IMG/VR virus record: IMGVR_UViG_3300005326_000027
Location: 1-42,776 of that record
Length of the DNA: 42,776 bases
Strand: one strand, 5' to 3'
From: a virus
Of the stretch, positions 1,500 through 33,686 are shown in pieces; positions within the stretch are counted from its first letter, which is position 1, and every line of letters begins with the position of its first letter. The notes below the pieces were generated by a model. That model was not told where the DNA came from, ran no database searches, and was given only the letters and a program-made list of their open reading frames with translations. A program made the translations under genes and the position numbers.

Positions 1500-1628
1500 T
1501 TAATGCCTTTTTTTCTGCTTCGGCGGTTCACGCTTGTTGGATTTCTCCCACTTCTCGTCTTGTTGCTCCTTCCGAATCTGGCGGAGATTTTCGAGTGTTC
1601 TCTCTCGCTGTTCGGAATTCTGCTTCAA
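1500..1628 (-). CDS. Small highly charged ORF (42 aa, TTG start) overlapping the stop of the upstream gene in another frame; expression mode unclear
   Basis: Hand translation: (L/M)KQNSEQRERTLENLRQIRKEQQDEKWEKSNKREPPKQKKRH*. It ends immediately before the terminator and has no ATG. Confidence 0.3.
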   Translation of the reverse strand: MKQNSEQRERTLENLRQIRKEQQDEKWEKSNKREPPKQKKRH

Positions 1629-1834
1629 GAGCCTTTCGCTTCGGGCAGAGCCGTAGGTTTGGCGCACTGCTCCTCCTCTTTCAGTATGTCAGCCTTGGTA
1701 ACTATGACGAGACCAGCCTTGTCAGCGTCATCACGTAGGCACCATTTACAAACATCAAAACGTGTCCGAGTGTCGTGGTAGGGCTTCTCGATGCGGATAG
1801 TACCGCCACATACATGGCAAGCCACGTAAGACAT
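1625..1834 (-). CDS. Zinc-ribbon miniprotein (69 aa)
   Basis: Internal ATG chosen because a perfect AAGGAGGTG Shine-Dalgarno lies 6 nt upstream (plus strand cacctcctt at 1841-1849). CHVCGG...CKWC motif. Confidence 0.65.
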   Translation of the reverse strand: MSYVACHVCGGTIRIEKPYHDTRTRFDVCKWCLRDDADKAGLVIVTKADILKEEEQCAKPTALPEAKGS

Positions 1835-1853
1835 AAAGAACACCTCCTTCCAG

Positions 1854-2387
1854 TTATACTCTATTACGTTTTCGCTTTTTTCCCAACAACTTCCTGCGCA
1901 GATTTTCTCTCCGATAACTTTCTCTTTTACATTCACGACAATAAGTATATTTAGCGTATCTCAAGATATCTTCCTCATTGGCAAGAAGATGCCTCTGTCT
2001 CCTACATTTTGAACCCACTGAAAGCTTATGCCCTAAACTACCGTTTCTCCAGCCTCCTCCACCGTTACGTTTGTATAAACCCATACTTTCTAGATATGAA
2101 ATACCCCGCTCAAGATTTACACGTAGAGAAACAGGTTCAAGGTGTTTTGGATTTACGCACGATGTGTTTCTGCATAGATGATCGATGACCAATCCGTTGG
2201 GGATGGTGTCTACAAAAAATTCATACGATGCTCTGTGTGCCATATATGTTTTGTATTTATATCCAAAACGTCCATATCCTTTAGAGTCTTTAGTGTGCAA
2301 CCATAGCCAACATTCTTTTTCTTCACCCACCCGAAAAAATCTTAAAAACCTTTGTAAAAAGCTGTCCGTCTTCCTATTTTTAAACAT
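1854..2387 (-). CDS. HNH homing endonuclease
   Basis: GYGRFGYK...AHRASYE...VIDHLCRNTSCVNPKHLE is typical of the phage HNH_3-type endonuclease signature. Confidence 0.8.
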   Translation of the reverse strand: MFKNRKTDSFLQRFLRFFRVGEEKECWLWLHTKDSKGYGRFGYKYKTYMAHRASYEFFVDTIPNGLVIDHLCRNTSCVNPKHLEPVSLRVNLERGISYLESMGLYKRNGGGGWRNGSLGHKLSVGSKCRRQRHLLANEEDILRYAKYTYCRECKRESYRRENLRRKLLGKKRKRNRV

Positions 2388-2486
2388 AAAACCCCAACTT
2401 AGACCGGAGATTCACCTTCGCAGATGAAGCCCCCGTCTAAAATGGGGTTTGGGGCGGTGTCCGGTCACGGATTTCTCCGTTCCACT

Positions 2487-2495
2487 AGTGTACCA
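2487..2495 (-). promoter_or_regulatory. Extended -10 promoter (TGgTACACT) for the HNH transcript, leaving a leader of about 90 nt
   Basis: The reverse complement of 2487-2495 reads TGGTACACT. It sits back-to-back with the plus-strand promoter at 2511. Confidence 0.4.
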
Positions 2496-2510
2496 TACTT
2501 TCGAACCCCG

Positions 2511-2519
2511 TGTTACAAT
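2511..2519 (+). promoter_or_regulatory. Extended -10 promoter (TGtTACAAT) 6 nt upstream of ATG 2526 (leaderless)
   Basis: tgttacaat followed by atatcc then ATG. Confidence 0.5.
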
Positions 2520-2525
2520 ATATCC

Positions 2526-2777
2526 ATGATAAAAGAATTTTCAAAAGAGCTTTTCAGTTCAAATCGCCTCAAGTCATATTTATGGCGTAGTGCTATGGCA
2601 GGAGTAGCGTATGGCCTCACGATTCTTGCTATTCAAATTCAAGCATGGCCAGCAACAGGGGACGCATCGGTAGCACTCTTCACGGCTATTGCACTTGGCC
2701 TAGGTGAGTTGTCAAAAGGCATCTCGAACTACCTTAAAAAAGAGGAAGAGGAAGGTGCTGGAGGTGGAATTGCGTAG
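2526..2777 (+). CDS. Small two-TM membrane protein with a charged C-terminus (holin-like topology)
   Basis: Hydrophobic stretches AMAGVAYGLTILAIQIQAW and ASVALFTAIALGLGEL, with tail KKEEEEGAGGGIA. The internal ATG was chosen over the longer ORF because of the adjacent promoter. Confidence 0.5.
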   Translation: MIKEFSKELFSSNRLKSYLWRSAMAGVAYGLTILAIQIQAWPATGDASVALFTAIALGLGELSKGISNYLKKEEEEGAGGGIA

Positions 2778-2826
2778 GAATCTTACATCTTCATAGGCAA
2801 TTTGTAGGATTCGGTATAAAGTCTAC

Positions 2827-2860
2827 ATGTGGAGTTTTCACTTTCTCCACATCTTTGTTT
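2827..2860 (+). terminator. Intrinsic terminator
   Basis: atgtggag (2827-2834) pairs with ctccacat (2845-2852), followed by ctttgttt. Confidence 0.6.
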
Positions 2861-2872
2861 GCAAACGCATTA

Positions 2873-2899
2873 AATCGCTTCTCGTGGAGGCGATTTTTT
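2873..2899. terminator. Second hairpin plus T-run, possibly bidirectional
   Basis: aatcgcttc ... gaggcgatt stem (one G-U pair) followed by tttttt at 2894-2899. Confidence 0.45.
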
Positions 2900-2934
2900 G
2901 TTTCTCTACTCTCGCCGTGAAGTGTTCGTAACCA

Positions 2935-3417
2935 TTACAGCCCTATCAAAATCATGCACTCAAGAATTGCATCGTGTAGCTTCTTTACCGTCCTTCCGCG
3001 AGCCACCAATAAGTAAAACTCTTCCTCACCAAGCCATTTTTTCATAAAAAGAGTGTAGCCGCCGTCGTACCCCTGATCTTCTTTCGTCTGCTTCTGATAT
3101 TCAAAGCCGAGTAGCTTACTTTTGAAATGGTGGAACCAACAGAGCGCAATACAGTTCTTTGGGTCATAGCGTGTAGCCTTGTGCGCTCGCCCTATGTAGT
3201 GGGAACATTGGAGTTTAGCTATCTCCACCACTTTACAGCCAGGGAACATGCATCGTCCGTCACGCTTGCGTATAAACAGGCTAAATTCGTCGTCAGTGGT
3301 GTCCATTGACCACAGTTGAGGTTTGGGTAGCTTTGAGGGTTTTTTAGTAACCTTGGGCTTTGTAGAGCGTGCTTTTCTTTTCCAAGCGGTCCTCTTTAAA
3401 CCCACCTTTCTTTGCAT
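2935..3417 (-). CDS. NinG/Rap-like structure-specific endonuclease
   Basis: FIRKRDGRCMFPGC...LQCSHYIGRAH..TRYDPKNCIALCWFHH matches my recollection of the lambda NinG cysteine/histidine pattern. Basic N-terminus. Confidence 0.55.
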   Translation of the reverse strand: MQRKVGLKRTAWKRKARSTKPKVTKKPSKLPKPQLWSMDTTDDEFSLFIRKRDGRCMFPGCKVVEIAKLQCSHYIGRAHKATRYDPKNCIALCWFHHFKSKLLGFEYQKQTKEDQGYDGGYTLFMKKWLGEEEFYLLVARGRTVKKLHDAILECMILIGL

Positions 3418-3423
3418 CTGTCA

Positions 3424-3434
3424 ATTATACCACG
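3424..3434 (-). promoter_or_regulatory. Extended -10 promoter CGTGGTATAAT, 6 nt upstream of ATG 3417 (leaderless)
   Basis: The reverse complement of attataccacg. Same motif as the plus-strand late promoters. Confidence 0.6.
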
Positions 3435-3470
3435 AAAAAACAGAAAACCGTCCTGTTACAGACGGCTTAC

Positions 3471-3845
3471 TTATTTTCTTCTTTCCCCAAAGATATATTT
3501 CTTTAATTTCCTATAGAAAAAGAAGGCAATCTTTTTAGAGAAACTCCCATTCTTAATAATTTGTCCAATTATTTTACTCCTTTTGGTTGCAATTTTTTGT
3601 TGAACGGCAAAGGAAGTTTTCGCCATCCGGTCACCTTTTTCTAAGATATCGTATCTCTTGAAATCACCGTTGTATCTTGCATAAACACGCCTCCAGAAAT
3701 CGTCCATATCTTTTACATAAAACATGATCCCCAAGTAACCGTTATTTTGGATTCTTGAATGGTCAATGAGGTACTGCCATAGCGCCTTTCTCTGATCTTC
3801 GGTAAATGTTTCAGAGAAATCACGCCAAGAGTTTAACTTGTTCAT
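3471..3845 (-). CDS. Hypothetical protein
   Basis: 124-aa ORF with an ATG start on the early strand. Confidence 0.55.
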   Translation of the reverse strand: MNKLNSWRDFSETFTEDQRKALWQYLIDHSRIQNNGYLGIMFYVKDMDDFWRRVYARYNGDFKRYDILEKGDRMAKTSFAVQQKIATKRSKIIGQIIKNGSFSKKIAFFFYRKLKKYIFGERRK

Positions 3846-3884
3846 TTACTTTTTTATTACTACAACCGAGAAGGTTGTTTTGTT

Positions 3885-4013
3885 TCATTTCCCAAACGTC
3901 AAATACTCATCCTTACAAAGTCTATCGGGGCAAAAGTCTCCTAAAGAAACGTCCAACATGTTGGCGCCACACAACTTGCACTTTGGGTATACTTCTTCGA
4001 TTGTTTGTACCAT
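3885..4013 (-). CDS. Zinc-ribbon miniprotein (42 aa)
   Basis: Hand translation: MVQTIEEVYPKCKLCGANMLDVSLGDFCPDRLCKDEYLTFGK*. Confidence 0.4.
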   Translation of the reverse strand: MVQTIEEVYPKCKLCGANMLDVSLGDFCPDRLCKDEYLTFGK

Positions 4014-4146
4014 TTTTTTATTCTTTAAGCGGTACTCTATAGGGGAACTGTTCCCCACCCTTCTACTGCGGACATGTTCGGGCTAAACCGATAGTTGTTA
4101 CAGGTATTTCGCCATGCTAGCTGTGCTTTTTATGCACGCATGAGAA

Positions 4147-4318
4147 GAGTGAGGAACTGTGAGGAGCAGATACCCCCGTTCTAGGCTTGGCCAACTTACG
4201 ACATCCAGAGGGGCTTCCACCACGTCTGGTTGCACCTAGAACCGCAGGGCGTATCCACTCCCCACACCAAGTGGGGTACAGATTGTCCCCTACTTGACGT
4301 TATTTTATCACCTCACTC
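4147..4318 (-). ncRNA. Candidate structured RNA element A (unclassified): five nested helices forming a rod
   Basis: Complementary pairs: 4147-4154/4311-4318, 4158-4166/4258-4266 (a G-U pair only on the minus strand), 4169-4173/4251-4255, 4178-4185/4235-4242 and 4205-4209/4225-4229. No minus-strand ORF. Confidence 0.5.
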
Positions 4319-4693
4319 ATCTTTCTTGTAGTTATTGTGGAGGGAGTCGATGGCCCTAGAAGTGTCAGCAATACCTTCTCGCCAGCCGTCGTGTCCTCTG
4401 TCCATGTCATTTTCACAGCCTTCTTTACATTTCAGGTCGTCCACCACTCCCTTCGCTGCTTCAAGAGCTGAACGATAGCCTGTTTTCACTCCTTCTTCGA
4501 AGAGATGAGTGCTTTGTTTTCCAGTAACTTCTTGGAGTGTAGCGATACGGGCTGAGGAGTATGCCATATCCCATGTTGCGTTTATAATCTCAGCCACTTT
4601 TCTTCTCATCGGCTCATAGAGAGGCCCCATTCCCTCGGTGTCTTTTTCAAAACCCCCCAGCATCTCCCCCTTGGTTTTATAGTGTTGTGTCAT
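4313..4693 (-). CDS. Hypothetical protein
   Basis: 126-aa ORF, ATGA-coupled to the upstream gene. Confidence 0.6.
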   Translation of the reverse strand: MTQHYKTKGEMLGGFEKDTEGMGPLYEPMRRKVAEIINATWDMAYSSARIATLQEVTGKQSTHLFEEGVKTGYRSALEAAKGVVDDLKCKEGCENDMDRGHDGWREGIADTSRAIDSLHNNYKKDE

Positions 4694-4986
4694 TGGGTGA
4701 GTTTCTCTGCCTTACTAATCCTCCTTCTACCCCAACTTGCAGAGGTCTTTAGTTGCTCCTCTTTGGAAAGACTACTGTAAGTATCTTTTGCATAACGTGC
4801 CCACTCAAGAAATGCTTTTTCATGACCAGATGTCACAATTTTTTCGGCCACATCTGGCGCGTAGGCTCCGACGTCCCATACTCTTTTTTTGTACCAAGAG
4901 GCAACGTTCCTTAAACCAAGCCAGTAGCACGCTTGCGCTATGGCGTGGGCTTTTTCCATTTGCTGCATGTTTTGGATTTTTTCCAT
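4690..4986 (-). CDS. Hypothetical protein
   Basis: 98-aa ORF. Confidence 0.55.
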   Translation of the reverse strand: MEKIQNMQQMEKAHAIAQACYWLGLRNVASWYKKRVWDVGAYAPDVAEKIVTSGHEKAFLEWARYAKDTYSSLSKEEQLKTSASWGRRRISKAEKLTQ

Positions 4987-5050
4987 ACCTTACGTGTTAT
5001 GTGATGCTAATTCTCCCTCACCTTTCTCTCTAAGGGATAGGGGGGGGGAG

Positions 5051-5353
5051 TTACTGTAGTTTTTCATCACCTATCCACTCGAATCGTTCCAACTCGTATG
5101 TTTTACCGTTTGCGTGGCAGACGAGGTCAATTAAATAATTACCTTCCACCGATGTAATACCGTTGTGTTTCATACAGATGGCAATTGCACGATAAAGACC
5201 ATTTCCAATTGCACCTGTTGCTTCGGCGGAAATCATATCTTCCTTTGACCACGTTTTTACAAGTGTCACAGGTGTTGTACCACGCCACGAGAGATAGGTG
5301 AGTCCTCCCGCACCTATGAGAATACCAAGCAGAATAAGCAGTGCGTTTTTCAT
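5051..5353 (-). CDS. N-terminally membrane-anchored or secreted small protein
   Basis: N-terminus MKNALLILLGILIGAGGLTYL. Confidence 0.55.
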   Translation of the reverse strand: MKNALLILLGILIGAGGLTYLSWRGTTPVTLVKTWSKEDMISAEATGAIGNGLYRAIAICMKHNGITSVEGNYLIDLVCHANGKTYELERFEWIGDEKLQ

Positions 5354-5357
5354 ATCT

Positions 5358-5702
5358 TTATTTCTTTTCCTCTAACGCTTGTAATAGTGAGGAGAGGCCA
5401 GCATTGAACGAAACATCTTTTAGAACCTTCACGCCGTTTTCCAAGGCTGTTGTATTCGGCAGAAAGGCCTCGTCTTTTCTCATTTTCCCCGCTATCTCCC
5501 TCACACTTCCGAGCATCTCCTCTCTCCCTCTTTCATAGGCAAGAGCTTCGCGTTCGAGGAGGAAGGCTTTAACGGTATCCGCATCAACTTCCCAGTGGTC
5601 TCCATAGTCAATTGTTAAGAAACCACCGTTTGCGTAAGATTTTCCTGCTCTTTCATCAAACAACGTCTCACTTTCTCTTTGGTGTTGGGGGAGTGAAGTC
5701 AT
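5358..5702 (-). CDS. Hypothetical protein
   Basis: ATG at 5702 preferred over the GTG at 5723. Confidence 0.5.
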   Translation of the reverse strand: MTSLPQHQRESETLFDERAGKSYANGGFLTIDYGDHWEVDADTVKAFLLEREALAYERGREEMLGSVREIAGKMRKDEAFLPNTTALENGVKVLKDVSFNAGLSSLLQALEEKK

Positions 5703-5704
5703 GG

Positions 5705-5788
5705 TTAGTTCGGTACCACCCACAAGAATAACAGCACCACACCGATAATAAAGGCCAGGAACGCAAGTGTTACTTTCACCATAGCCAT
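5705..5788 (-). CDS. Possible 27-aa hydrophobic peptide
   Basis: Hand translation: MAMVKVTLAFLAFIIGVVLLFLWVVPN*. Its stop is 2 nt before the next ATG. Confidence 0.3.
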   Translation of the reverse strand: MAMVKVTLAFLAFIIGVVLLFLWVVPN

Positions 5789-5804
5789 TTCAGTAGGTTC
5801 ATCG

Positions 5805-5832
5805 AGCGCACCGAGGTCAGCGCACCGAGGTC
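5805..5832. repeat. 14-bp perfect tandem duplication (agcgcaccgaggtc x2)
   Basis: Read directly. It contains the same TGCGCT/AGCGCA core as the 9-bp array at 10891. Confidence 0.8.
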
Positions 5833-5881
5833 GAGGTATTCCATTTCGTCGTTGTTGTGTTTCATTGTTTTAGTAGTTGTT

Positions 5882-6217
5882 TTAATTGTGTTTGTATTCT
5901 TCTTCACCACGTTTGTAGATGCGTTTGCAAGTTCGTAGAATTTCGAGAAGTGTTGCGTGCGCTCGCTCTGCTTCTTTATAGGTTCGATGTTCTTCTGTGG
6001 CTTCACTTCGCAATTTACCTTCCGCAACAGACTTTGAAGAGGTCAAGAGTTCGAGCTTCTTTACGTTGTACTCATGCTCTCGTGCCGTGAGTACCGTAGC
6101 GATGTTGGCAAGAATAGCGGTAGCTTGCACCAAGAGTCCTTCGGCAATTACGGGAGTGAGGGTATCTGGTCGTTCTTGGTGTAGCTGATACAGTGCCAAA
6201 AACTTGTTGTAGTTCAT
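5882..6217 (-). CDS. Hypothetical coiled-coil protein
   Basis: 111-aa ORF with a TAATG overlap to the upstream gene. Confidence 0.55.
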   Translation of the reverse strand: MNYNKFLALYQLHQERPDTLTPVIAEGLLVQATAILANIATVLTAREHEYNVKKLELLTSSKSVAEGKLRSEATEEHRTYKEAERAHATLLEILRTCKRIYKRGEEEYKHN

Positions 6218-6873
6218 TAGAATGGACTATCTGCAAACGGATCTTTAAGTATTTCCTTTGGATAGCCACCTAGGCCTCCTACTTTCACCGTCTCGTTAGG
6301 GTCTGATTCACCTTGATTCATCATTGACTGATATTCCTGTGAGGACATTACTTTCTCTTTAATAAAGTTTGGAAGTTTATCAAAGTATTCCTGATCCCAG
6401 TTTTGGTAGGTCTGAATACGAGAAGGATTAACTTGTGCGGGCTTCTCCATGCCTTTCATTAAAGGCGAGGTTGAGGCGATGCGTGCGTAGGTATTCCCCT
6501 TAGCGTTAGTCTTGTGAATGATGTTTAAGAGGCAGGACTTTCCCACAAGAGACTCTACATCGAAGTGCTCCGCATCGTGGTCTGACATTTTTCCCATCAT
6601 GCCCTCTACAATTTTTCGTAGGTTAGACTTTTCACCGAAAGAAAGTGTGTACTCTTCGGAGATAACTCGTGGCTGTGGGCCGTTCTCTTGTTTGAATACA
6701 TGGAGTTCGTTAGGAAGCTCCCAGGTGAGGCGTATTTTAGCAGTATCACGGGCGATACCTTCGTATGAATCAGGAATAGTACCAATGAAGAGGAAATTGT
6801 AGAGCGTGGCGATGTGTGTTCCTGCTGTAATTTCTTGAATGTCTCGTTTCATTACTGGTGCAAATGTTGGCAT
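6217..6873 (-). CDS. Hypothetical protein, possibly SSB-like
   Basis: 218-aa ORF. The C-terminal tail ...KDPFADSPF resembles the acidic D-x-P-F tips of ssDNA-binding proteins. There is no other support. Confidence 0.5.
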   Translation of the reverse strand: MPTFAPVMKRDIQEITAGTHIATLYNFLFIGTIPDSYEGIARDTAKIRLTWELPNELHVFKQENGPQPRVISEEYTLSFGEKSNLRKIVEGMMGKMSDHDAEHFDVESLVGKSCLLNIIHKTNAKGNTYARIASTSPLMKGMEKPAQVNPSRIQTYQNWDQEYFDKLPNFIKEKVMSSQEYQSMMNQGESDPNETVKVGGLGGYPKEILKDPFADSPF

Positions 6874-6937
6874 TTTGGTTGTTTTATTTTGTTTAATAAG
6901 TACCTCTAGTATGGCTCTAATTAGCCATATTGTCTAG

Positions 6938-7096
6938 TTATTCGCACGTTCGGTCTATCTCTTTTCTAAGTTGATATATCTCTCCGATCTCCAGAATCAT
7001 CTCGAGATCGTCACGGTGAAAAATGTAGTACTTTTTTCCATGAGTCACTCCATCCCTAAACTCTTCCCGAATCTCTATCCTTATTTCTTTTTCCAT
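6938..7096 (-). CDS. Hypothetical small protein
   Basis: ATG 7096 preferred, because the 7183 start in the ORF track is a TTG. Confidence 0.4.
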   Translation of the reverse strand: MEKEIRIEIREEFRDGVTHGKKYYIFHRDDLEMILEIGEIYQLRKEIDRTCE

Positions 7097-7106
7097 GTTA
7101 CTTACG

Positions 7107-7238
7107 TTAGCGTTTACCAATCCACACCCACAGAAGGCAGTTAAATGCCCATGCCATTGCGTGATAGTTTTCAATAATTGCAAAGCTAATAATAGCTACA
7201 ACACACAAGACGCTCATTATTACCCTTTCTGTTTTCAT
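7107..7238 (-). CDS. Possible 43-aa membrane miniprotein
   Basis: Hand translation: MKTERVIMSVLCVVAIISFAIIENYHAMAWAFNCLLWVWIGKR*. Confidence 0.35.
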   Translation of the reverse strand: MKTERVIMSVLCVVAIISFAIIENYHAMAWAFNCLLWVWIGKR

Positions 7239-7240
7239 AG

Positions 7241-7351
7241 CTAGTTGGTTTTAGCTTCCTCTCGTGCTTCTTCTGTATCACAGCGCATCTCTTCAATTCT
7301 ATCGTTTTGCTCATGTTCAAACTCTCCTACGCCATATTCTTGGGGTTCCAT
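7241..7351 (-). CDS. Possible 36-aa acidic miniprotein
   Basis: Hand translation: MEPQEYGVGEFEHEQNDRIEEMRCDTEEAREEAKTN*. Confidence 0.3.
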   Translation of the reverse strand: MEPQEYGVGEFEHEQNDRIEEMRCDTEEAREEAKTN

Positions 7352-7368
7352 GTGTAGTATTCGTTTAG

Positions 7369-7524
7369 TTAGGCCTCCAGAGCGTCTATATCGCTCACCA
7401 TGCCTCGTAGTTCATCACAGGTAGGGCAACCTACCACCTCGCCACATTCCTCCTTCCTGTGAAGATTCCAGAGGAGGTCAATTTTCTTAATCATTTCTTG
7501 TTTGTTTTGGTTTAGTGTTTGCAT
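7369..7524 (-). CDS. Cys-containing miniprotein (51 aa)
   Basis: Internal ATG avoids overlap with 7550..7774. Motif ECGEVVGCPTC. Confidence 0.45.
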   Translation of the reverse strand: MQTLNQNKQEMIKKIDLLWNLHRKEECGEVVGCPTCDELRGMVSDIDALEA

Positions 7525-7549
7525 AGTTTTGTTTGTTTTAAGTGTTTTG

Positions 7550-7774
7550 TTAGTCCTGTTCAGCTTGGGCGATTTTAGATACCGCTTCCGCTTCTTCTTC
7601 AAAGTGCTTCTCCAGTTCTTCTTCATGTCGGATGCGTAGGTTCATGGAAGCGTCTATGGCTTCTGAAACACGCTGTAGCTGTTCTTCAAAGTTCTTTTTT
7701 GCTTCGAGCATGTTGTGAAAGACCACATAAATCTCTTCTTCTCGTTCTCGCCAAAGTTGTAATGTTTTGTCCAT
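7550..7774 (-). CDS. Acidic coiled-coil miniprotein
   Basis: 74-aa ORF. Confidence 0.5.
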   Translation of the reverse strand: MDKTLQLWREREEEIYVVFHNMLEAKKNFEEQLQRVSEAIDASMNLRIRHEEELEKHFEEEAEAVSKIAQAEQD

Positions 7775-7814
7775 GTTTGTTTGTGTTACTTTTTTACTCG
7801 CTAATGAGCAGGGC

Positions 7815-8078
7815 GGAGCTTACGGGGGACTGATCACCCACCAGATTTCTCTGATGAATAAACCCCACAAGCTCCACAATGCTCACTAACCGTTTAGGTT
7901 GTGAGTGCCGTCTCTTCGCTCCACTTCCCTTTTTCGTTTCTCCGTAGAGAATCTAACCAAGAAGTGGTGGCGGTAGAGGTCGCGTGCCTGATTTCCAGGT
8001 GGGGAACGGAGAGGTAATTAATCTCTCGAAGTCTTTGCGGGAGTTGAACCCGCCAGTCACCGGACTCAGACCTTCCCC
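7815..8078 (-). ncRNA. Candidate structured RNA element B (unclassified)
   Basis: Helices: 7815-7819/7871-7875, 7882-7891/7897-7905, 7921-7927/7961-7967 and 8001-8006/8073-8078. Hairpins: UACG-loop at 7939-7950, GAAA-loop at 7840-7855, 8009-8027, 8055-8066 and a T-loop-like hairpin at 8037-8053. No ORF. Confidence 0.5.
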
Positions 8079-8160
8079 CATCCAGAAACCAAGCTATTGA
8101 ATTGTCGAAGTGCTGCGTCCCGTACCTTGTGTATACTTTAGCAAATCATCGTGCGCTAGG

Positions 8161-8538
8161 TCAAGTGTTATCAACCTTACAATCTGTGAATAGTGGACAT
8201 TCTTTCGTACAGATACTTTCGGGAACATCCTCTGGGTTTGGGTGATTGTGTCCTGGCCCAAAGGCTGCTGAGTAATCACCCGTCACTATTTTCTTTGTTA
8301 AATACCTCAGTTTCTCTTCTGCTTTTGCCTCGATCTGCCGGATTCTCTCACGTGTCACACCAAACTTCTGGCCCGTTCGTTCCAGGGAGTTCCATTCTAT
8401 GAGTCGGTAGTACATCACATCGCGCTCTTTTTCGGATAAGTCGCCCGCTCCTTGTGCTAGGTCAAGCATCTCGACGATATTTCCGCGGGAAGAGACTAAC
8501 ATTTGTTTCCACTCGTGGTATGTGAATTGATTTTCCAT
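8161..8538 (-). CDS. Sigma-70 region-4 (HTH) domain protein, no recognisable region 2
   Basis: LSEKERDVMYYRLIEWNSLERTGQKFGVTRERIRQIEAKAEEKLR is a typical sigma region 4.2 signature. Confidence 0.7.
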   Translation of the reverse strand: MENQFTYHEWKQMLVSSRGNIVEMLDLAQGAGDLSEKERDVMYYRLIEWNSLERTGQKFGVTRERIRQIEAKAEEKLRYLTKKIVTGDYSAAFGPGHNHPNPEDVPESICTKECPLFTDCKVDNT

Positions 8539-8543
8539 ATTCT

Positions 8544-8741
8544 CTATGTATCTTGGTTGGTAAGGGCTATTCGACGCATATTCAGCAATCCATTAAAGGG
8601 ATTACGCAGTCTTCGATTAGTACACGGAGCGCAGAGAGGCTTCCATTCGCCTTTGGAGTTTTCTTGCTCCCATGCGTCTTTCTTTGGAACTGGTTTTTTC
8701 TTTGTACACCATCCGCATTTTTCCTGCATTTTATTTCTCAT
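8544..8741 (-). CDS. Zinc-ribbon miniprotein
   Basis: CGWC...CAPC. Confidence 0.5.
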   Translation of the reverse strand: MRNKMQEKCGWCTKKKPVPKKDAWEQENSKGEWKPLCAPCTNRRLRNPFNGLLNMRRIALTNQDT

Positions 8742-8889
8742 TACCTGACTTGTTGGTAAGGGCTAGCGACTCTTCGAAGCCACATCTATCGCATATCCGT
8801 ATTGGGATATACACAATATCACCTGCTGGTTTCCTTTCCGCGAAATAAAACTTGTGTCCGGAAATCTGACAACGGAGTTTGTTTCTCAT
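8731..8889 (-). CDS. Zinc-ribbon-like miniprotein (52 aa)
   Basis: Hand translation: MRNKLRCQISGHKFYF...RICDRCGFEE.... ATGA-coupled upstream. It shares the MRNK start with the next gene. Confidence 0.35.
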   Translation of the reverse strand: MRNKLRCQISGHKFYFAERKPAGDIVYIPIRICDRCGFEESLALTNKSGNEK

Positions 8890-9221
8890 TTCTGTTCTTC
8901 ATTACCTGACTTGATACGGGAGAGGATGTCGTCGACTGTGTTGTTTACCCCAGCGACACGATTGAATTGCGCCAAACTGTACATGTATTCGGGAGAATCT
9001 GGCGACAAAACGTGCGGCTTTTCTTCTCTCATCTTTCCAACCTCCTCCTCAACAAGAAAGAGCTGTTGAGTAAGGGCGGAGGAGAGGAAAGCCTTGATGT
9101 TCTCGTCATTTATCGGTAAAAGCTCTTTTCCTTCGAGTTTCAGGCTATGAAACGAGCCGAACTTCTCGTCGAAATCTTCCAAGGTCTGCTGACGGAATGA
9201 GGTGAGGGGGGTGTTGGTCAT
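8886..9221 (-). CDS. Hypothetical protein
   Basis: ATG 9221 forms an ATGA overlap with the stop of 9218..9403. Confidence 0.5.
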   Translation of the reverse strand: MTNTPLTSFRQQTLEDFDEKFGSFHSLKLEGKELLPINDENIKAFLSSALTQQLFLVEEEVGKMREEKPHVLSPDSPEYMYSLAQFNRVAGVNNTVDDILSRIKSGNEEQK

Positions 9222-9403
9222 TTGAGTTGTCCGATACTTTTCCAACCTTCTGTTTCCAGACTTGCAAACTCCATAATCTCGCAAGCAAGGCATTCTTTGT
9301 TCGCCAGGGGACACACAATGCAGGACTGGGTAAACACTTCACGAACAACGTACATCTCTTCCATATCATCTACATAGAGTTCGTTTATTTTAGGTTTGTT
9401 CAT
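9218..9403 (-). CDS. Zinc-ribbon miniprotein
   Basis: CIVC...CLAC. Confidence 0.5.
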   Translation of the reverse strand: MNKPKINELYVDDMEEMYVVREVFTQSCIVCPLANKECLACEIMEFASLETEGWKSIGQLK

Positions 9404-9453
9404 TTCTCTTTTCTCTTATCTTGTAATGGTACTCTAGGGGGGCAAACTATTTA

Positions 9454-9609
9454 CTAGAGTGAGTTGGTAAGTTTATAAGAGTCTATAAGCTTTTTTAATT
9501 CTTCCCCATTTTTTGCTAACTCTTCAATTCTTCTATCTATCCGATCTCCCAAGATATCCAACCTGCGTTCAGCGATAAAGCTTTCTCTTTGGAAGTCGGC
9601 GAGATTCAT
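9454..9609 (-). CDS. Hypothetical coiled-coil miniprotein (51 aa)
   Basis: Hand translation: MNLADFQRESFIAERRLDILGDRIDRRIEELAKNGEELKKLIDSYKLTNSL*. Confidence 0.4.
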   Translation of the reverse strand: MNLADFQRESFIAERRLDILGDRIDRRIEELAKNGEELKKLIDSYKLTNSL

Positions 9610-9750
9610 AGGGTTGATATTTCATATTGAATAATTCTCTCGACATCGTCGAATCCGAAAACATAGGTATTGCTGAACTCCTGCTTTGCTTTCTGCACAC
9701 GCAATTTAGCCAACAGTTCAAGTAGAATGAGTTTTTCTAGTTCTTTCATC
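9606..9750 (-). pseudogene. Small ORF split by a +1 frame change at CUU UGA (9723..9718)
   Basis: MKELEKLILL stops at a TGA. Skipping one T continues as ELLAKLRVQKAKQEFSNTYVFGFDDVERIIQYEISTL*, whose stop is ATGA-coupled to the next gene. Confidence 0.35.
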
Positions 9751-9762
9751 CAAAGTATTCGT

Positions 9763-9927
9763 TAGACTTGGTAATCACTTTTTTACTTTCTTACTCTTCC
9801 TCGCCTCCACTCCCTTCTCGGAGAGTTTCTTCATAAAAGCACTGTAGCCTTCCTTGCCCATCTCTTTGCGACGTTTCTTTGCTAAGAGACCAGCCATTTC
9901 TTGGGCTGCCTTATTCTTTACTCGCAT
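9763..9927 (-). CDS. Basic miniprotein (54 aa)
   Basis: Hand translation: MRVKNKAAQEMAGLLAKKRRKEMGKEGYSAFMKKLSEKGVEARKSKKVKSDYQV*. Confidence 0.4.
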
Positions 9928-10256
9928 TAGTCGATCACAATTTTTAGCTCTTTGTCCCAGGGATTATATTCCATTTCATGCAAGACCTTTCTCGTTCCTG
10001 CCTCAACTTCCTGAACACCATGTTCTTGGTCACCACCTACATGCTGAATTAGATAGGGTTCATCGCAGTGGATATACTCAACGCCACTTTCGGTCCACCT
10101 AAAAATAAGGGCGTTTTTGGAAACAACCTCGTGGCGGTTGCCCGTTGGACCAGAGTCTTGGAGAATGTGGAGTTTTGACAGTGCTGCGTCTCCTGGCCTG
10201 GTAACTCCTTCGAAAGGATAGAGAACAAGATCGCCATGGTTGTTTAAAGTTTCCAT
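9927..10256 (-). CDS. Hypothetical protein
   Basis: 109-aa ORF. HGDLVLYP...GPTGNRHEV...EHGVQEV...EYNPW is reminiscent of small beta-barrel phage proteins. No function assigned. Confidence 0.55.
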   Translation of the reverse strand: METLNNHGDLVLYPFEGVTRPGDAALSKLHILQDSGPTGNRHEVVSKNALIFRWTESGVEYIHCDEPYLIQHVGGDQEHGVQEVEAGTRKVLHEMEYNPWDKELKIVID

Positions 10257-10257
10257 A

Positions 10258-11370
10258 TTATGACTTCTTAGATACTAATAATTCGTTTGTTGTTTGGTGC
10301 CGAAGTTTTGCAACTGTTTCAAGAGCGTTTGTGCTTTCTGGTGGTACAAACTTTATATATTCCTTCGCTGAACTCCACCCCGAATAGGCAAGAACTTTGC
10401 ACGTTCCGATTCCTTTGAGATTTAGTTCCCATAAATCGTATCCGCCGCACTCGTCAGAATGATCTACCAGTGTTTTTTGTACTGTTTCAAGCAACTCCTT
10501 GATTGGTCGCTCACGTAGAAGTGCTGAACGCTGGTCGATGTCCTCCCAGGCAATAATGTCTGTAATAGTGGCTGTTTGAGACTTCTTGAACTGCTCTTCG
10601 GTGAATTTTACCCCGTGGATGTAAAAAACTTCTGCTCCACCCTTCCAGTGAATTGCCGGACCATTTGTTGAATGGAAGCGATTTTCCACATCTATTTTTA
10701 CAAGGGGTGTAGGAACTAAGTACAAAGTGTCTTCGTACTCAACTCTGTAACCAAGTCCTGCTTCCTTTGCCTGCATGAGAAGTTCACAGTATTTGAGATA
10801 TTTCTTATCATGTTCATTTACTGGAAAATCTGAATCTGGATTTTCGCAATACTCGTGTTCGATTACAAACCAGTCGAAATCATAGTCTAGTGCGCTCCCT
10901 GCGCTCCGTGCGCTCCGTGCGCTCCGTGCGCTCCATGCGCTCCATGCGCTCCGTGCGCTCCCTGCGCTCCGTGCGCTCCATGCGCTCCGTGCGCTCCATG
11001 CGCTCCGTGCGCTCCCTGCGCTCCCTGCGCTCCCTGCGCTCCGTGCGCTCCGTGCGCTCCATGCGCTCCCTGCGCTCCCTGCGCTCCCTGCGCTCCATGC
11101 GCTCCATGCGCTCCCTGCGCTCCGTGCGCTCCCTGCGCTCCCTGCGCTCCGTGCGCTCCATGCGCTCCCTGCGCTGTCGATAGCATCTACGAATTTCTTT
11201 TCAAAGATGTCTTTATACCAAACCACTTTTTTTGGCCGTGGTAGATCAAAAAGATCGTAGGTTTTAAGAATGAGTTCCTCGCTCAGTTTTTTGTCGAGAA
11301 CAAAGTCTTCACGTTCTACATTGCGGCACTGACGTTCTATTAAATCTGCTGTTTTTTGTGAATAATCCAT
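10258..11370 (-). CDS. Repeat-containing protein: N-terminal region, 31 x S-A-[G/W/R], and a conserved-looking C-terminal domain
   Basis: 370-aa ORF. The C-terminal motif [24 protein letters not shown] resembles, from memory, the DUF6745-type family. This is unverified. Confidence 0.65.
10891..11175. repeat. 31.7 tandem copies of the 9-bp unit TGCGCTCCN, where N is C, G or A only
   Basis: Counted directly: N is C x12, G x11, A x8 and T x0. All other positions are invariant and all six frames are open. Confidence 0.95.
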
Positions 11371-11412
11371 AATTACTTTTTTATCTGCCCCTACAGTCTA
11401 GCGCACGGTTGA

Positions 11413-11589
11413 CTAAAAGTCCATGAGATCCTCTGGCAACTTCAAACCTAACTGCTCATAGATAGCTTTACGCTCTACATCAATCTTGGCACGCATGTCG
11501 GGTGGTATGGCTGGTGCTATACCTTCTCTGTACTGCTTGGCTCTCTGCTCACGAGTCCAGTTGTCGGCGATTGTTTCTTTGTTGCTCAT
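11413..11589 (-). CDS. Hypothetical miniprotein (58 aa)
   Basis: ATG 11589 is ATGA-coupled to the upstream stop. Confidence 0.5.
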   Translation of the reverse strand: MSNKETIADNWTREQRAKQYREGIAPAIPPDMRAKIDVERKAIYEQLGLKLPEDLMDF

Positions 11590-11861
11590 AGTTTTTTTAT
11601 CTTTAACGATCCGAAGAAGCACTTACTAAAACCACTTTTTGAACTTTTACAGATACTTAGAAGGTAATACAAGTCGTGTTTTGATAAATGACTCGTCTTA
11701 ATTGCAATAGCTCTTCCTGTTACAGGCTTCCACTTTGTATTTTTCCTTTCTACGTTAATCGTTTCTACAAACTCTTGAACCAAACTCGCGCGTTCACTAT
11801 TCGCTCCACTTTTCTTTTTTTGAATTTCTTGCGTCGGCAAAAGATCAAAGAGAGATTTCAT
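11586..11861 (-). CDS. Hypothetical protein
   Basis: 91-aa ORF. Confidence 0.55.
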   Translation of the reverse strand: MKSLFDLLPTQEIQKKKSGANSERASLVQEFVETINVERKNTKWKPVTGRAIAIKTSHLSKHDLYYLLSICKSSKSGFSKCFFGSLKIKKL

Positions 11862-11899
11862 ACTTTTTTAGTTCTTTCCTTAACTCTAACTCATGTAAG

Positions 11900-12484
11900 T
11901 ACAGTTCTCCCATTACCCTAGAATGAATGCAGTAGTGGGCTGGAGTTCTGAGTATGTAGTTTTCTCTGTTGCCACTGTCATGCAGATACCCTCCGTACCA
12001 CCCTTTGTTACTTCGTTAAGCGTGGTAGTTCTTTTAATCTCATGCAGTAGCTGAATGTCTACGGTGCATATCAGACGGCAGGGAGGTAATGGGAGAACCT
12101 TTTCCCCTGCTTTCGCATATGCACCTTAGAATCCTTTATTTATTTACGCGCCACAGGAACGATATGTGGGACGTTGTACCGGAATGCAGTTTTACTTCAT
12201 GCCACCGAAAAGAAGGATCGAGAGAACGTTGTTTGCATGAACATTAAGAACAGAGTACGGGTGGCAACGATTTGACGAGAGTGACAGGACCCGAACCTGC
12301 GCAAGGGCAACCCTTTCGGGATTCGGTACCAACTCCTCATTACGCCAACACTAACTCGTATAGTCACGTTGCATGAGTGGCTCTTGGATGTTGCAGCTTG
12401 CCATAACATCTTCCACTGCAAGCGAGAGTCTACCTATTCCTCCACACCCGTACTCCGTCCTCAAAGTTCTTTGGGGCTTGTATT
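11900..12484 (-). ncRNA. Candidate large structured RNA element C (unclassified)
   Basis: Pairings: a 14-nt perfect long-range complement at 11904-11917/12085-12098, 9 bp at 12063-12071/12117-12125, 12079-12083/12105-12109, and 12387-12392/12405-12410. Two GAAA-loop hairpins (about 12109-12116 and 12311-12320) and a T-loop-like hairpin at 12284-12300 (a G-U pair only on the minus strand). Confidence 0.5.
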
Positions 12485-12519
12485 AAAACAGAAAACCCCG
12501 CGCTGATTAGGCCACGGAG
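12485..12519 (-). terminator. Intrinsic terminator or attenuator about 75-100 nt downstream of the promoter at 12597-12625
   Basis: Minus strand CUCCGUG (12519..12513) pairs with CGCGGGG (12502..12496), followed by UUUUCUGUUUU. Confidence 0.5.
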
Positions 12520-12596
12520 TTTCTGGGGTCCACCTTGCGACGGACTTTATGAAAACTTAGTCTAATCAGTTCACTATTGCAAGTAGTGATATGAAT

Positions 12597-12625
12597 AGTA
12601 TATCTATTGACAGAAAAACGTACAA
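12597..12625 (-). promoter_or_regulatory. Sigma-70-type promoter TTGTAC-17 nt-TATACT
   Basis: The -35 is the reverse complement of 12620-12625 and the -10 is the reverse complement of 12597-12602, with a 17-nt spacer. Confidence 0.5.
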
Positions 12626-12654
12626 TCCAAAATAAGGGGATAAGTTGGGGACAA

Positions 12655-12975
12655 CTAGTAGAACCTCTCACCACGTTTTACCGCTACCTTTTCGGGTAGA
12701 ACAGGTATAGCGAGCTTTTTTCTTCCAATCTTCTCACTAGCCTCTTGGGTACTTCTGTAAATTGCACGATACGACAGCCACGCCTTTTCACACGGTGACT
12801 TTTTTCTATCAATGACCCCACATACATACGTCCTGGCTCTTCTTTCCTTGTGTACATCGTACCTCACCAACTCTTTCCCACACCAGATACAAACAGCCTC
12901 CATACGCTTGTTTATTTTATTCTTAGCTGGCCTTCCATTCTCATCTACTAACAAAAAGTAGTCGCCAAGTTTCAT
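12655..12975 (-). CDS. Zinc-ribbon protein (106 aa), first gene of the early arm
   Basis: ATG 12975 chosen because of the adjacent extended -10. Motif CIWCGK...C...C. Confidence 0.55.
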   Translation of the reverse strand: MKLGDYFLLVDENGRPAKNKINKRMEAVCIWCGKELVRYDVHKERRARTYVCGVIDRKKSPCEKAWLSYRAIYRSTQEASEKIGRKKLAIPVLPEKVAVKRGERFY

Positions 12976-12981
12976 ATTCTT

Positions 12982-12990
12982 ATTAAAGCA
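12982..12990 (-). promoter_or_regulatory. Extended -10 (TGcTTTAAT) 6 nt upstream of ATG 12975 (leaderless)
   Basis: Reverse complement of 12982-12990. Confidence 0.45.
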
Positions 12991-13131
12991 CGAAAACCAC
13001 ATCACTGTGGTTCTCACGCACACTCACATCCCTGCGAGCCTAGCTTCTCGAAAGAAAGCTGGAAACAATACCACCGTTCTGATAGACAATCTTGTGGCGG
13101 TACTGCATGGGGTATTGTAGAATAAAAGCAG

Positions 13132-33648: not shown

Positions 33649-33686
33649 CTAGTTACAGGACTGATTAGTAAAAAAGTAAAAAAAGT

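What the first reader, a model, noticed from the sequence alone, without database searches (positions are those of the whole stretch)
7815..8078. Second structured ORF-free segment with UNCG and GNRA hairpins and a T-loop-like three-way junction
Seen: the 385 nt between CDS 8161..8538 and CDS 7550..7774 contain no ORF. On the minus strand I can pair 7815-7819/7871-7875, 7882-7891/7897-7905 and 7921-7927/7961-7967. The last of these encloses a UCUC-UACG-GAGA hairpin at 7939-7950, which is a UNCG tetraloop. There is also an AUCAGA-GAAA-UCUGGU hairpin at 7840-7855.

A three-way junction is closed by 8001-8006/8073-8078. It contains hairpins at 8009-8027 and 8055-8066, plus GCGGG-UUCAACU-CCCGC at 8037-8053, whose loop matches the tRNA T-loop consensus.

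Inference: stable tetraloops and a T-loop module are hallmarks of selected RNA structure rather than random sequence.
Basis: partly seen in the sequence, partly recalled or inferred. Interest (0 to 1): 0.62.

Follow-up and report, generated by a model that had tools for sequence, protein, structure and literature searches.

The report
Conserved folded RNA leader in phage
A 386-base gene-free stretch in the early arm of an uncultivated 42.8-kb phage encodes a real, evolutionarily maintained folded RNA of about 340 bases that matches no known RNA family. It most likely serves as the structured leader of a small early gene, but its exact job is unknown.

Summary

The new evidence is a homologous 426-nt gene-free stretch in a second phage lineage (L002 and about ten sister contigs). 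It is only 57% identical, folds equally well (z -6.0), and keeps the same layout:
- a conserved sigma-70-type promoter;
- domain I, a 13-bp helix closing a branched junction;
- domain II, a tetraloop-capped hairpin;
- domain III, a double-stranded rod of about 38 bp;
- the motif TAAAAAAGTAA, then the start of a homologous small coiled-coil protein gene.

In the two best helices, 35 of 35 pairs form in both lineages. Seven changed on both sides, against 0-1 in slid controls.

The T-loop and the 7882-7905 hairpin are not conserved. The UNCG hairpin is kept as a tetraloop hairpin (UACG versus GUAA).

There is no Rfam, tRNA or tmRNA match, and no other copy turned up in viral, metagenome or genome collections.

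Best reading: a new orphan structured RNA, probably a cis-acting 5' leader. A processed trans-acting RNA is not excluded.

The parts
8135..8164 (-). Predicted sigma-70-type promoter: TTGACC, 18-nt spacer, TAAAGT, with an extended -10 TG. It lies inside an 18-nt block (8150-8167) that is identical in the second lineage.
   Evidence: Promoter scan on the window. The same promoter, TTGACC-17-TACAGT with TG, is at L002:6598-6626. Identical block CACTTGACCTAGCGCACG. No transcript-end data exist, so this is a prediction.
8088..8103 (-). Conserved block AAUUCAAUAGCUUGGU. It comprises the unpaired 5' flank and the outer 5' strand of helix P1.
   Evidence: 16 nt identical between the window and L002, against 57% identity overall.
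7986..8094 (-). Domain I. P1 is a 13-bp helix (8082-8094 with 7986-7998). P2 is a 7-bp helix (8074-8080 with 8000-8006). The branched core holds P3 (8068-8073 with 8029-8034), hairpin a (8055-8066), hairpin b (8037-8053, the T-loop-like one) and hairpin c (8009-8027).
   Evidence: MFE and centroid agree, z -3.46. P1 is kept in L002 with 3 pairs changed on both sides and 3 on one side (a fourth both-sided change lies in the first 3 bp of P2), and all pairs stay standard. L002 also has three terminal hairpins, but with different sequences and a four-way instead of a nested three-way junction.
7980..7991 (-). Conserved block UCAGGCACGCGA. It comprises the outer 3' strand of P1 plus the unpaired 3' flank.
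   Evidence: 12 nt identical in both lineages. The sequence is unique in the window.
7921..7967 (-). Domain II. A 9-bp outer stem (CCACUUCUU/GGGAAGUGG) with an inner hairpin UUCUC-UACG-GAGAA (7938-7951), which carries a UNCG tetraloop.
   Evidence: z -3.74. L002 has an equivalent hairpin at the same place (10-bp stem, tip AUC-GUAA-GAU) with both-sided changes in the outer and inner stems.
7800..7890 (-). Domain III, a long double-stranded rod. Stem A is 11 bp (7880-7890 with 7800-7810), stem B is 15 bp (7863-7877 with 7813-7827), and stem C is 12 bp capped by GAAA (7834-7861).
   Evidence: -54.4 kcal/mol and z -9.43 on the minus strand, against z -4.14 on the plus strand. In L002, 19 of 19 aligned stem pairs are kept, 3 changed on both sides and 2 on one side. 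The apex differs: L002 has a forked tip, and variant L076 lacks 8 nt there.
7786..7796 (-). TAAAAAAGTAA motif 11 nt before the ATG. It is a phage-wide start-site signal, not part of the fold.
   Evidence: 11 copies with at most one mismatch, against 1.7 expected. Exact copies sit directly before the ATGs at 3845, 7774, 11370 and 33687, and before the L002 ATG at 6991.
7550..7774 (-). Downstream gene for a 74-aa acidic protein predicted to be a single long helix. It is inherited together with the RNA.
   Evidence: 37% identical to L002:6991-7293, E 6e-10. AlphaFold model: helix over residues 3-73, pLDDT 96.5. No Pfam or PHROG match.
8161..8538 (-). Upstream gene for a 125-aa protein with only sigma-70 region 4. 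Its last codons run into sequence that is non-coding in the other lineage.
   Evidence: Pfam Sigma70_r4, E 2.7e-12. In L002 the 96%-identical gene lies 2.2 kb upstream of the RNA, and a methylase-like gene is the RNA's upstream neighbour instead.

Best explanation
The gap encodes a genuine multi-domain structured RNA of about 340 nt on the minus strand, and it belongs to no described family. I infer that it is made from its own conserved sigma-70-type promoter (8164-8135).

It runs without a recognisable terminator through three domains. Domain I is a long helix closing a branched core with conserved unpaired flanks. Domain II is a tetraloop-capped hairpin. Domain III is a rod of about 38 bp. 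It then reaches the TAAAAAAGTAA start-site motif and the ATG of a small coiled-coil protein gene.

The most likely role is a cis-acting 5' leader of this early transcription unit:
- The heavy folding keeps a long untranslated stretch stable.
- Domain III, a long imperfect duplex next to the start codon, is the kind of substrate RNase III cuts. It could give the downstream message a defined, hairpin-protected end.
- The conserved junction of domain I is the likely docking site for a protein or other factor that tunes expression.

What is shown: the fold is conserved through compensatory changes, it is strand-specific, it is non-coding, and it is inherited together with the promoter and the downstream gene. 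What is inferred: the transcript ends, the processing, and action in cis.
For: - Fold stability: minus-strand z is -5.69 against -1.76 for the plus strand. Every domain is significant alone in both lineages.
- A homologous 426-nt gene-free stretch exists in a second lineage (L002, L003, L005, L075-L081), z -6.01.
- The two are only 57% identical, yet share identical blocks of 18, 16, 12, 8 and 11 nt.
- Covariation: 35 of 35 pairs of P1 (plus the first 3 bp of P2) and the domain III stems are standard pairs in both lineages. Seven changed on both sides and 5 on one side. Slid controls give 34-44% paired and 0-1 double changes. Domain II covaries too.
- Many G-U pairs would be A-C mismatches on the other strand.
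- Non-coding: no ORF is shared. Most indels are not multiples of three, and there is an 8-nt deletion polymorphism.
- The promoter is conserved in both lineages.
- Neither a terminator-like site nor a second promoter lies between the RNA and the ATG in the window.
- The RNA and the downstream gene stay together while both neighbours differ.
- The other two long structured gaps of the phage also end in TAAAAAAGTAA plus ATG. That fits a leader-then-first-gene design.
Against: - Only two independent lineages exist, so covariation cannot be tested statistically in the R-scape manner. The branched core differs in predicted topology between them.
The start site, any processing, and whether the RNA stays attached to the message are all unknown.
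- TAAAAAAGTAA could be a promoter-like element rather than a ribosome-entry signal. In that case the downstream gene would have its own start and the RNA would be a separate product.
- L002, but not the window, has a terminator-like hairpin in the domain III apex.
- No mechanism-specific feature was demonstrated, such as a ligand pocket, an RNase III cut or a protein partner.
Confidence: 0.5

Rival explanations
1. It is a stand-alone trans-acting non-coding RNA. It is made from the same promoter and released, for example by cleavage in or after domain III. It then acts on a host or phage factor as a sponge, scaffold or ribonucleoprotein, possibly together with the co-inherited coiled-coil protein.
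For: - It has its own conserved promoter.
- Its size and multi-domain layout, with conserved unpaired junction blocks and variable peripheral hairpins, are typical of RNAs that bind a partner.
- It is inherited as a cassette with one small protein gene while both neighbours change.
- TAAAAAAGTAA might give the downstream gene an independent start.
Against: - The window has no terminator after the RNA.
- There are no repeated protein-binding motifs in the loops.
- There is no significant complementarity to the start regions of downstream genes in either lineage (all z above -1).
- The partner protein is acidic and a single helix, which is not an obvious RNA binder.
Confidence: 0.28
2. It is a tRNA-like or T-loop-containing mimic, in line with the first reader's emphasis. 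Domain I would imitate a tRNA elbow or acceptor-T arm to recruit tRNA-handling enzymes such as RNase P, as in the P4 CI and P1 c4 precursors.
For: Hairpin 8037-8053 matches the T-arm consensus exactly: a 5-bp stem, a G-C closing pair and loop UUCAACU. It stacks next to a 6-bp helix.
Against: - ARAGORN finds no tRNA or tmRNA.
- Rfam gives no tRNA-clan hit, even at E up to 10.
- The homologue replaces this hairpin with a different stem and an AAG loop.
- Two unpaired A separate the T-like stem from the would-be acceptor strand.
- One consensus loop among about ten hairpins is within reach of chance.
Confidence: 0.05
3. It is a DNA-level element, such as a replication origin, cruciform or recombination junction, or simply a decaying gene remnant with no RNA function.
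For: - The window shows no recognisable replication genes or origin in its early arm.
- The 18-nt promoter block lies at a mosaic junction where the upstream neighbour differs between lineages.
Against: - The fold is strongly strand-asymmetric.
- Conserved helices contain many G-U pairs.
- Compensatory changes preserve pairing.
- There are no direct-repeat iterons.
- Identical blocks alternate with covarying helices, which does not fit neutral decay.
Confidence: 0.07
4. It is hidden coding sequence. With TGA read as an amino acid (code 4 or 25), the sigma-like ORF runs on to 7894 (214 aa). Alternatively, a small protein is encoded inside the gap.
For: Under table 4 the frame stays open through two TGA codons.
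Against: - The frame is not kept in L002. Indels are 4, 8, 21, 3 and 6 nt in one row and 2, 1, 12, 6, 7 and 7 nt in the other.
- In L002 the RNA follows a different gene.
- TGA ends 4 of 32 well-defined genes, and ORFs 340-891 and 888-1367 overlap by the 4 nt expected of an ATGA junction.
- The 42-aa ORF at 7953-8081 loses its ATG in L002, where the codon is AUA.
Confidence: 0.03

Closest known systems
RNase III-processed early leaders and intercistronic hairpins of coliphage T7 (for example R0.3 ahead of gene 0.3) and the SP82 '5' stabiliser' of Bacillus phages (from my own knowledge)
   Same: It sits promoter-proximal in the early region and ahead of a small acidic early protein. It has long imperfect duplexes with small internal loops, 38 bp in domain III and 20 bp in P1+P2. 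It is transcribed with the downstream gene.
   Different: It is far larger and has a branched domain I with conserved unpaired blocks. There is no sequence or Rfam relationship. Cleavage is untested, and the host and its RNase III are unknown.
Leader-embedded regulatory RNAs of phages P1/P7 (c4) and P4 (CI)
   Same: A structured RNA lies in the leader of an early operon, possibly cut out of the primary transcript. The window copy has a tRNA-like touch.
   Different: Those RNAs are about 70-80 nt and act by base-pairing to sites in their own operon. Here no complementarity to downstream start regions stands out, and the tRNA-like loop is not conserved.
HK022 put RNAs and other promoter-proximal cis-acting antitermination RNAs (from my own knowledge)
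   Same: A folded RNA lies immediately downstream of an early promoter and could act in cis on the transcribing polymerase.
   Different: put is two short stem-loops of about 65 nt. No downstream terminators to be overridden were identified here, and there is no similarity.
Large ornate RNAs of prophages and bacteria (ROOL, GOLLD, raiA, OLE)
   Same: It is a multi-domain, phage-associated structured RNA of unknown function.
   Different: Those are in Rfam and give no hit. They are mostly larger (about 200 to 800 nt) and widespread, whereas this one is known from two lineages only.
Candidate structured RNAs predicted in IMG/VR viruses (Fremin, Bhatt and Kyrpides 2023, PMC10690425)
   Same: It belongs to the same kind of object: an unnamed, covariation-supported motif that includes cis-regulatory structures positioned upstream of phage genes.
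   Different: I could not check whether this locus is among their 10,006 candidates. Whether it is larger than those candidates was not checked either.

Membership tests
tRNA, tmRNA or tRNA-like element | Cloverleaf or acceptor-T minihelix detectable by ARAGORN or the Rfam tRNA-clan models | tested here: not met
   ARAGORN finds 0 genes. There is no Rfam hit at gathering score or at E up to 10.
tRNA, tmRNA or tRNA-like element | T-loop (UUCRANY on a 5-bp stem) conserved in homologues | tested here: not met
   It is present in the window at 8037-8053. L002 has a different stem with an AAG loop at that place.
Any described RNA family (Rfam 15) | Covariance-model score at or near the family threshold | tested here: not met
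   The window, L002 and L017 stretches give only miRNA or thermometer noise far below threshold.
Conserved structured RNA (generic) | Helices kept by compensatory changes in independent homologues, and more stable than shuffles | tested here: met
   35 of 35 pairs are kept, 7 with double changes, against 0-1 in slid controls. z is -5.7 and -6.0. Only two lineages exist, so there is no formal significance test.
Riboswitch | Conserved aptamer core joined to an expression platform (a terminator or a helix that hides the start site) with alternative pairing | tested here: inconclusive
   Conserved junction blocks exist. The window has no terminator, and only L002 has a terminator-like apex. Domain III ends 24 nt before the ATG and leaves the start motif free. 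No ligand can be inferred from a gene of unknown function.
RNase III-processed phage leader | About two turns or more of imperfect duplex in a transcribed intergenic or leader position | tested here: met
   Domain III has 11+15+12 bp and P1+P2 has 13+7 bp. Both are kept in L002.
RNase III-processed phage leader | Actual cleavage by RNase III, giving processed ends | not testable with these tools
Leader-embedded antisense RNA (P1 c4 / P4 CI type) | Loops complementary to sites near downstream start codons | tested here: not met
   Duplex energies against 9 downstream start regions in the window and 6 in L002 are no better than shuffled targets, with z from -0.9 to +2.1.

The most novel reading that the evidence does not exclude
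The promoter, the RNA of about 340 nt and the coiled-coil protein gene form a self-contained mobile cassette. It would encode a new trans-acting phage ribonucleoprotein or ornate RNA that acts on a host machine early in infection, for example RNA polymerase/sigma, the ribosome or an RNA-targeting defence. The conserved unpaired blocks AAUUCAAUA and ACGCGA of domain I would form the recognition surface. A 402-nt structured gap in a third sigma-r4 phage lineage (L017:5329-5730, z -4.45) shares UGGGGGAA, CGUUCCCCAC and CAGGCAC in the same order. It could be a very diverged member, which would make this a wider family.
Probability: 0.15. Interest if true: 0.7.

Novelty: new member of a known kind. 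Interest (0 to 1): 0.5.

Why it matters
Structured RNAs of 300 nt or more with several domains are, to my knowledge, rare and usually do something important. This one has comparative support and a defined promoter-to-gene context, and it sits in an uncultivated phage group from environmental metagenomes whose early genes are almost all unknown. If it is a leader, it shows how these phages, which lack Shine-Dalgarno sites and chain tiny genes by overlap, organise the heads of their early transcription units. If it acts in trans, it would be a new phage takeover RNA. Either way, the two diverged copies give a concrete fold to probe.

Tried and rejected
- Rfam at gathering and E-value thresholds on the window, L002 and L017 found nothing meaningful.
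- ARAGORN found nothing.
- blastn of the gap against 50,697 phage records gave no match.
- Single-protein and profile scans of viral contigs with the flanking proteins found no relatives.
- Exact-block scans all gave only chance hits or none, as checked with nhmmer and the covariance model. The patterns were AATTCAATAGCTTGGT, TCAGGCACGCGANCTCT and CACTTGACCTAGCGCACG in viral contigs, and the two-block pattern AATAGCTTGG-N81-111-CAGGCACGCG in viral, metagenome and genome contigs.
- The covariance model of domain I (R1) was run without filters. It found no second copy in the window, so elements A and C show no match to domain I. It also found none in other sigma-r4 phage contigs.
- Profile search with the downstream protein found only the two known lineages among 5.8 billion proteins.
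- Gaps near the sigma gene in other lineages are not structured: L011:3629-4000 has z 0.4, L003:2916-3240 has z -0.45 and L012:5201-5806 has z -0.8.
- Mapping the whole MFE through the sequence alignment gave only modest enrichment, because the variable hairpins misalign. The signal sits in P1, domain II and the domain III stems.
- Antisense targets near downstream starts: none.
- Alternative genetic codes were rejected.
- Host: the large terminase is at most 40% identical to any cultured phage, the nearest being Pelagibacter podophages.

Full report
**Setting**

The window is a complete 42,776-bp phage genome with direct terminal repeats. Genes from about 1,600 to 13,000 lie on the minus strand as a chain of small early ORFs. 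The structural and packaging genes follow on the plus strand. The finding lies between a 125-aa protein that has only sigma-70 region 4 (8161-8538; Pfam E 2.7e-12) and a 74-aa ORF (7550-7774).

**Observation**

The gap 7775-8160 is 386 nt and holds only short ORFs.

The minus-strand RNA folds to -140.8 kcal/mol with z -5.69, and none of 100 dinucleotide shuffles does as well. The plus strand gives z -1.76. In a 150-nt sliding scan of the early arm this is one of the two most extreme minus-strand windows.

The domains are significant on their own:
- Domain I (7980-8100): z -3.5, against -1.55 on the plus strand.
- Domain II (7917-7971): z -3.7.
- Domain III (7796-7894): z -9.4, against -4.1 on the plus strand.

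**The fold**

- P2 follows after a one-base bulge (8074-8080 with 8000-8006).
- P2 opens into a branched core: P3 (8068-8073 with 8029-8034) carrying hairpins 8055-8066 and 8037-8053, plus hairpin 8009-8027.
- Domain III is a rod of 11 + 15 + 12 bp capped by GAAA.
The minimum-energy fold takes stem A.

**Relatives**

Direct DNA and single-protein searches found nothing. A search with the sigma-like protein gave a 96%-identical protein on 13 metagenome contigs, plus more distant lineages.

Fetching those contigs and comparing DNA showed a mosaic relationship. In the L002 lineage the sigma gene sits 2.2 kb further upstream, and a methylase-like gene precedes a 427-nt gene-free gap. The start of that gap matches window 8167-8088.

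Alignment shows that the whole gap is homologous. Identity is 57% overall, with identical blocks of 18, 16, 12, 8 and 11 nt. The gene that follows is homologous to the window's 74-aa gene (37% identity, E 6e-10).

The L002 stretch folds as well as the window's (z -6.01) and has the same order of parts: promoter, P1, branched core with three terminal hairpins, domain II, domain III, TAAAAAAGTAA, ATG.

Ten further contigs carry the L002 version. One of them (L076) has an 8-nt deletion in the domain III apex. Two contigs carry the window's version unchanged.

**Covariation**

RNAalifold on the two sequences predicts 68 shared pairs, 19 of them changed on both sides. That number is inflated because the structure was derived from the same alignment.

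I therefore counted only the helices that each sequence predicts independently. These were P1 plus the first 3 bp of P2 (16 pairs) and domain III stems A and B (19 pairs).
- All 70 cells are standard pairs.
- Seven pairs changed on both sides and five on one side.
- Sliding the 3' partner by 1-3 columns gives 34-44% paired and 0-1 double changes.
- The inner half of P1 is fully rewritten (UUUCUGG/CCUGGAAA against UAAGCAG/CUGCUUG), while the outer half and its unpaired flanks are identical.
- Domain II's stems also change on both sides, and its tip switches from UACG to GUAA.
- Numerous G-U pairs fix the strand as minus.

Mapping each full minimum-energy fold onto the other sequence gives only modest enrichment. 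The variable hairpins cannot be aligned by sequence.

With two lineages this is good qualitative evidence, not a statistical proof.

**Not coding**

No ORF is shared. The window's 42-aa ORF starts at an AUG that is AUA in L002. Most indels are not multiples of three, and L076 has an 8-nt polymorphic deletion.

Reading TGA as sense would extend the sigma ORF to 7894. That frame is not kept in L002. TGA serves as a stop for 4 of 32 well-defined genes, and ORFs 340-891 and 888-1367 overlap by the 4 nt expected of an ATGA junction.

**Known families**

Rfam 15 gives nothing at gathering thresholds, and only microRNA and thermometer noise at E up to 10 for the window, L002 and L017. ARAGORN finds no tRNA or tmRNA.

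The T-loop-like hairpin matches the tRNA T-arm consensus in the window, but L002 has a different hairpin with an AAG loop there. The tRNA-like reading is therefore not supported.

A covariance model of domain I, run without filters, finds only the two known lineages. It finds no second copy in the window, so the phage's other structured gaps show no match to domain I. It also finds none in other sigma-r4 phage contigs or in the pattern hits.

**Context and mechanism**

A sigma-70-type promoter with an extended -10 lies at the head of the gap in both lineages, inside the 18-nt identical block. In the window there is no terminator-like site and no further promoter before the ATG at 7774.

The 11-nt identical block just before the ATG, TAAAAAAGTAA, turned out to be a phage-wide motif:
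- There are 11 copies, against 1.7 expected, all on the local coding strand.
- Exact copies lie 0-11 nt before the ATGs at 3845, 7774, 11370 and 33687.
- The first three of those ATGs follow the three long structured gaps of the early arm.
- The phage's genes show no Shine-Dalgarno sequence.

I read the motif as the stand-alone start signal for genes that cannot be reached by translational coupling. That reading fits the gaps being transcribed leaders. It could instead be promoter-like, which would favour a separate RNA.

The downstream protein is an acidic single long helix with no family match.

No complementarity to downstream start regions stands out. That argues against a c4/CI-type antisense mechanism.

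Domain III and P1+P2 are duplexes long enough for RNase III. This is the basis for the processing-and-stabilising part of my preferred explanation, which remains inference.

**A possible third lineage**

In L017, whose sigma-like protein is 67% identical to the window's, a 402-nt gene-free gap lies 1.6 kb downstream of the sigma gene. It folds with z -4.45 into two helix-closed domains. It shares UGGGGGAA, CGUUCCCCAC and CAGGCAC with the window in the same order.

Neither nhmmer nor the covariance model detects it, and its neighbours are unrelated. I count it as a lead only.

**Limits**

The host is unknown. The large terminase is at most 40% identical to cultured phages. Some contigs of related sigma-r4 lineages carry sample names suggestive of aquifer or groundwater sites, and the environments of the two RNA-bearing lineages are not known.

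**Verdict**

This is a real, conserved, strand-specific structured RNA of a new, so far two-lineage family. It is most likely the folded leader of an early transcription unit. The inference of selection is right, but the T-loop argument is not.

Noticed in passing
window 3846-3856, 7786-7796, 11373-11383 (minus strand); 33669-33679 (plus strand); L002:6976-6986: The motif TAAAAAAGTAA occurs 11 times with at most one mismatch, against 1.7 expected. It is always on the local coding strand, and exact copies lie 0-11 nt before start codons. Three of those starts follow the three long structured gene-free gaps. Genes lack Shine-Dalgarno sites. It is probably the phage's stand-alone translation-start signal, or possibly a promoter-like one.
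   Followed up: partly
window 8161-8290 compared with L002:4249-4330: The sigma region-4 gene is 92% identical in DNA to its L002 counterpart up to window 8291, then diverges. Its last ~10 codons (about 8195-8164) run into sequence that is non-coding in L002. The gene seems to have been moved next to the RNA cassette by recombination, which gave it a new Cys-containing tail. A near-copy of the promoter block (TTGACCTAGCACAAG) lies inside the gene at 8451-8465.
   Followed up: partly
L017:5329-5730: A 402-nt gene-free gap in another sigma-r4 phage lineage folds with z -4.45 into two helix-closed domains. It shares three short strings with the window's domain I in the same order. It may be a very diverged relative or an independent analogue.
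   Followed up: partly
L002:6991-7293: The L002 homologue of the 74-aa protein carries an extra C-terminal pair of CxxCxGxG motifs (CARCEGTG and CKLCSGTG), like the zinc-finger repeats of DnaJ. The window's copy lacks them.
   Followed up: no
L002:6894-6921: The domain III apex of the L002 lineage contains a terminator-like hairpin followed by a U-rich run, UCCGGC-GGUA-GCUGGA then UGCUUCUUUU. The window has no counterpart. Variant L076 deletes 8 nt (TTCTAGAA) nearby.
   Followed up: no
window 2326-2475 and 4126-4275 (minus strand): Two other early-arm segments also stand out in the sliding fold scan (mononucleotide shuffles), with z about -5.3 and -3.3.
   Followed up: no
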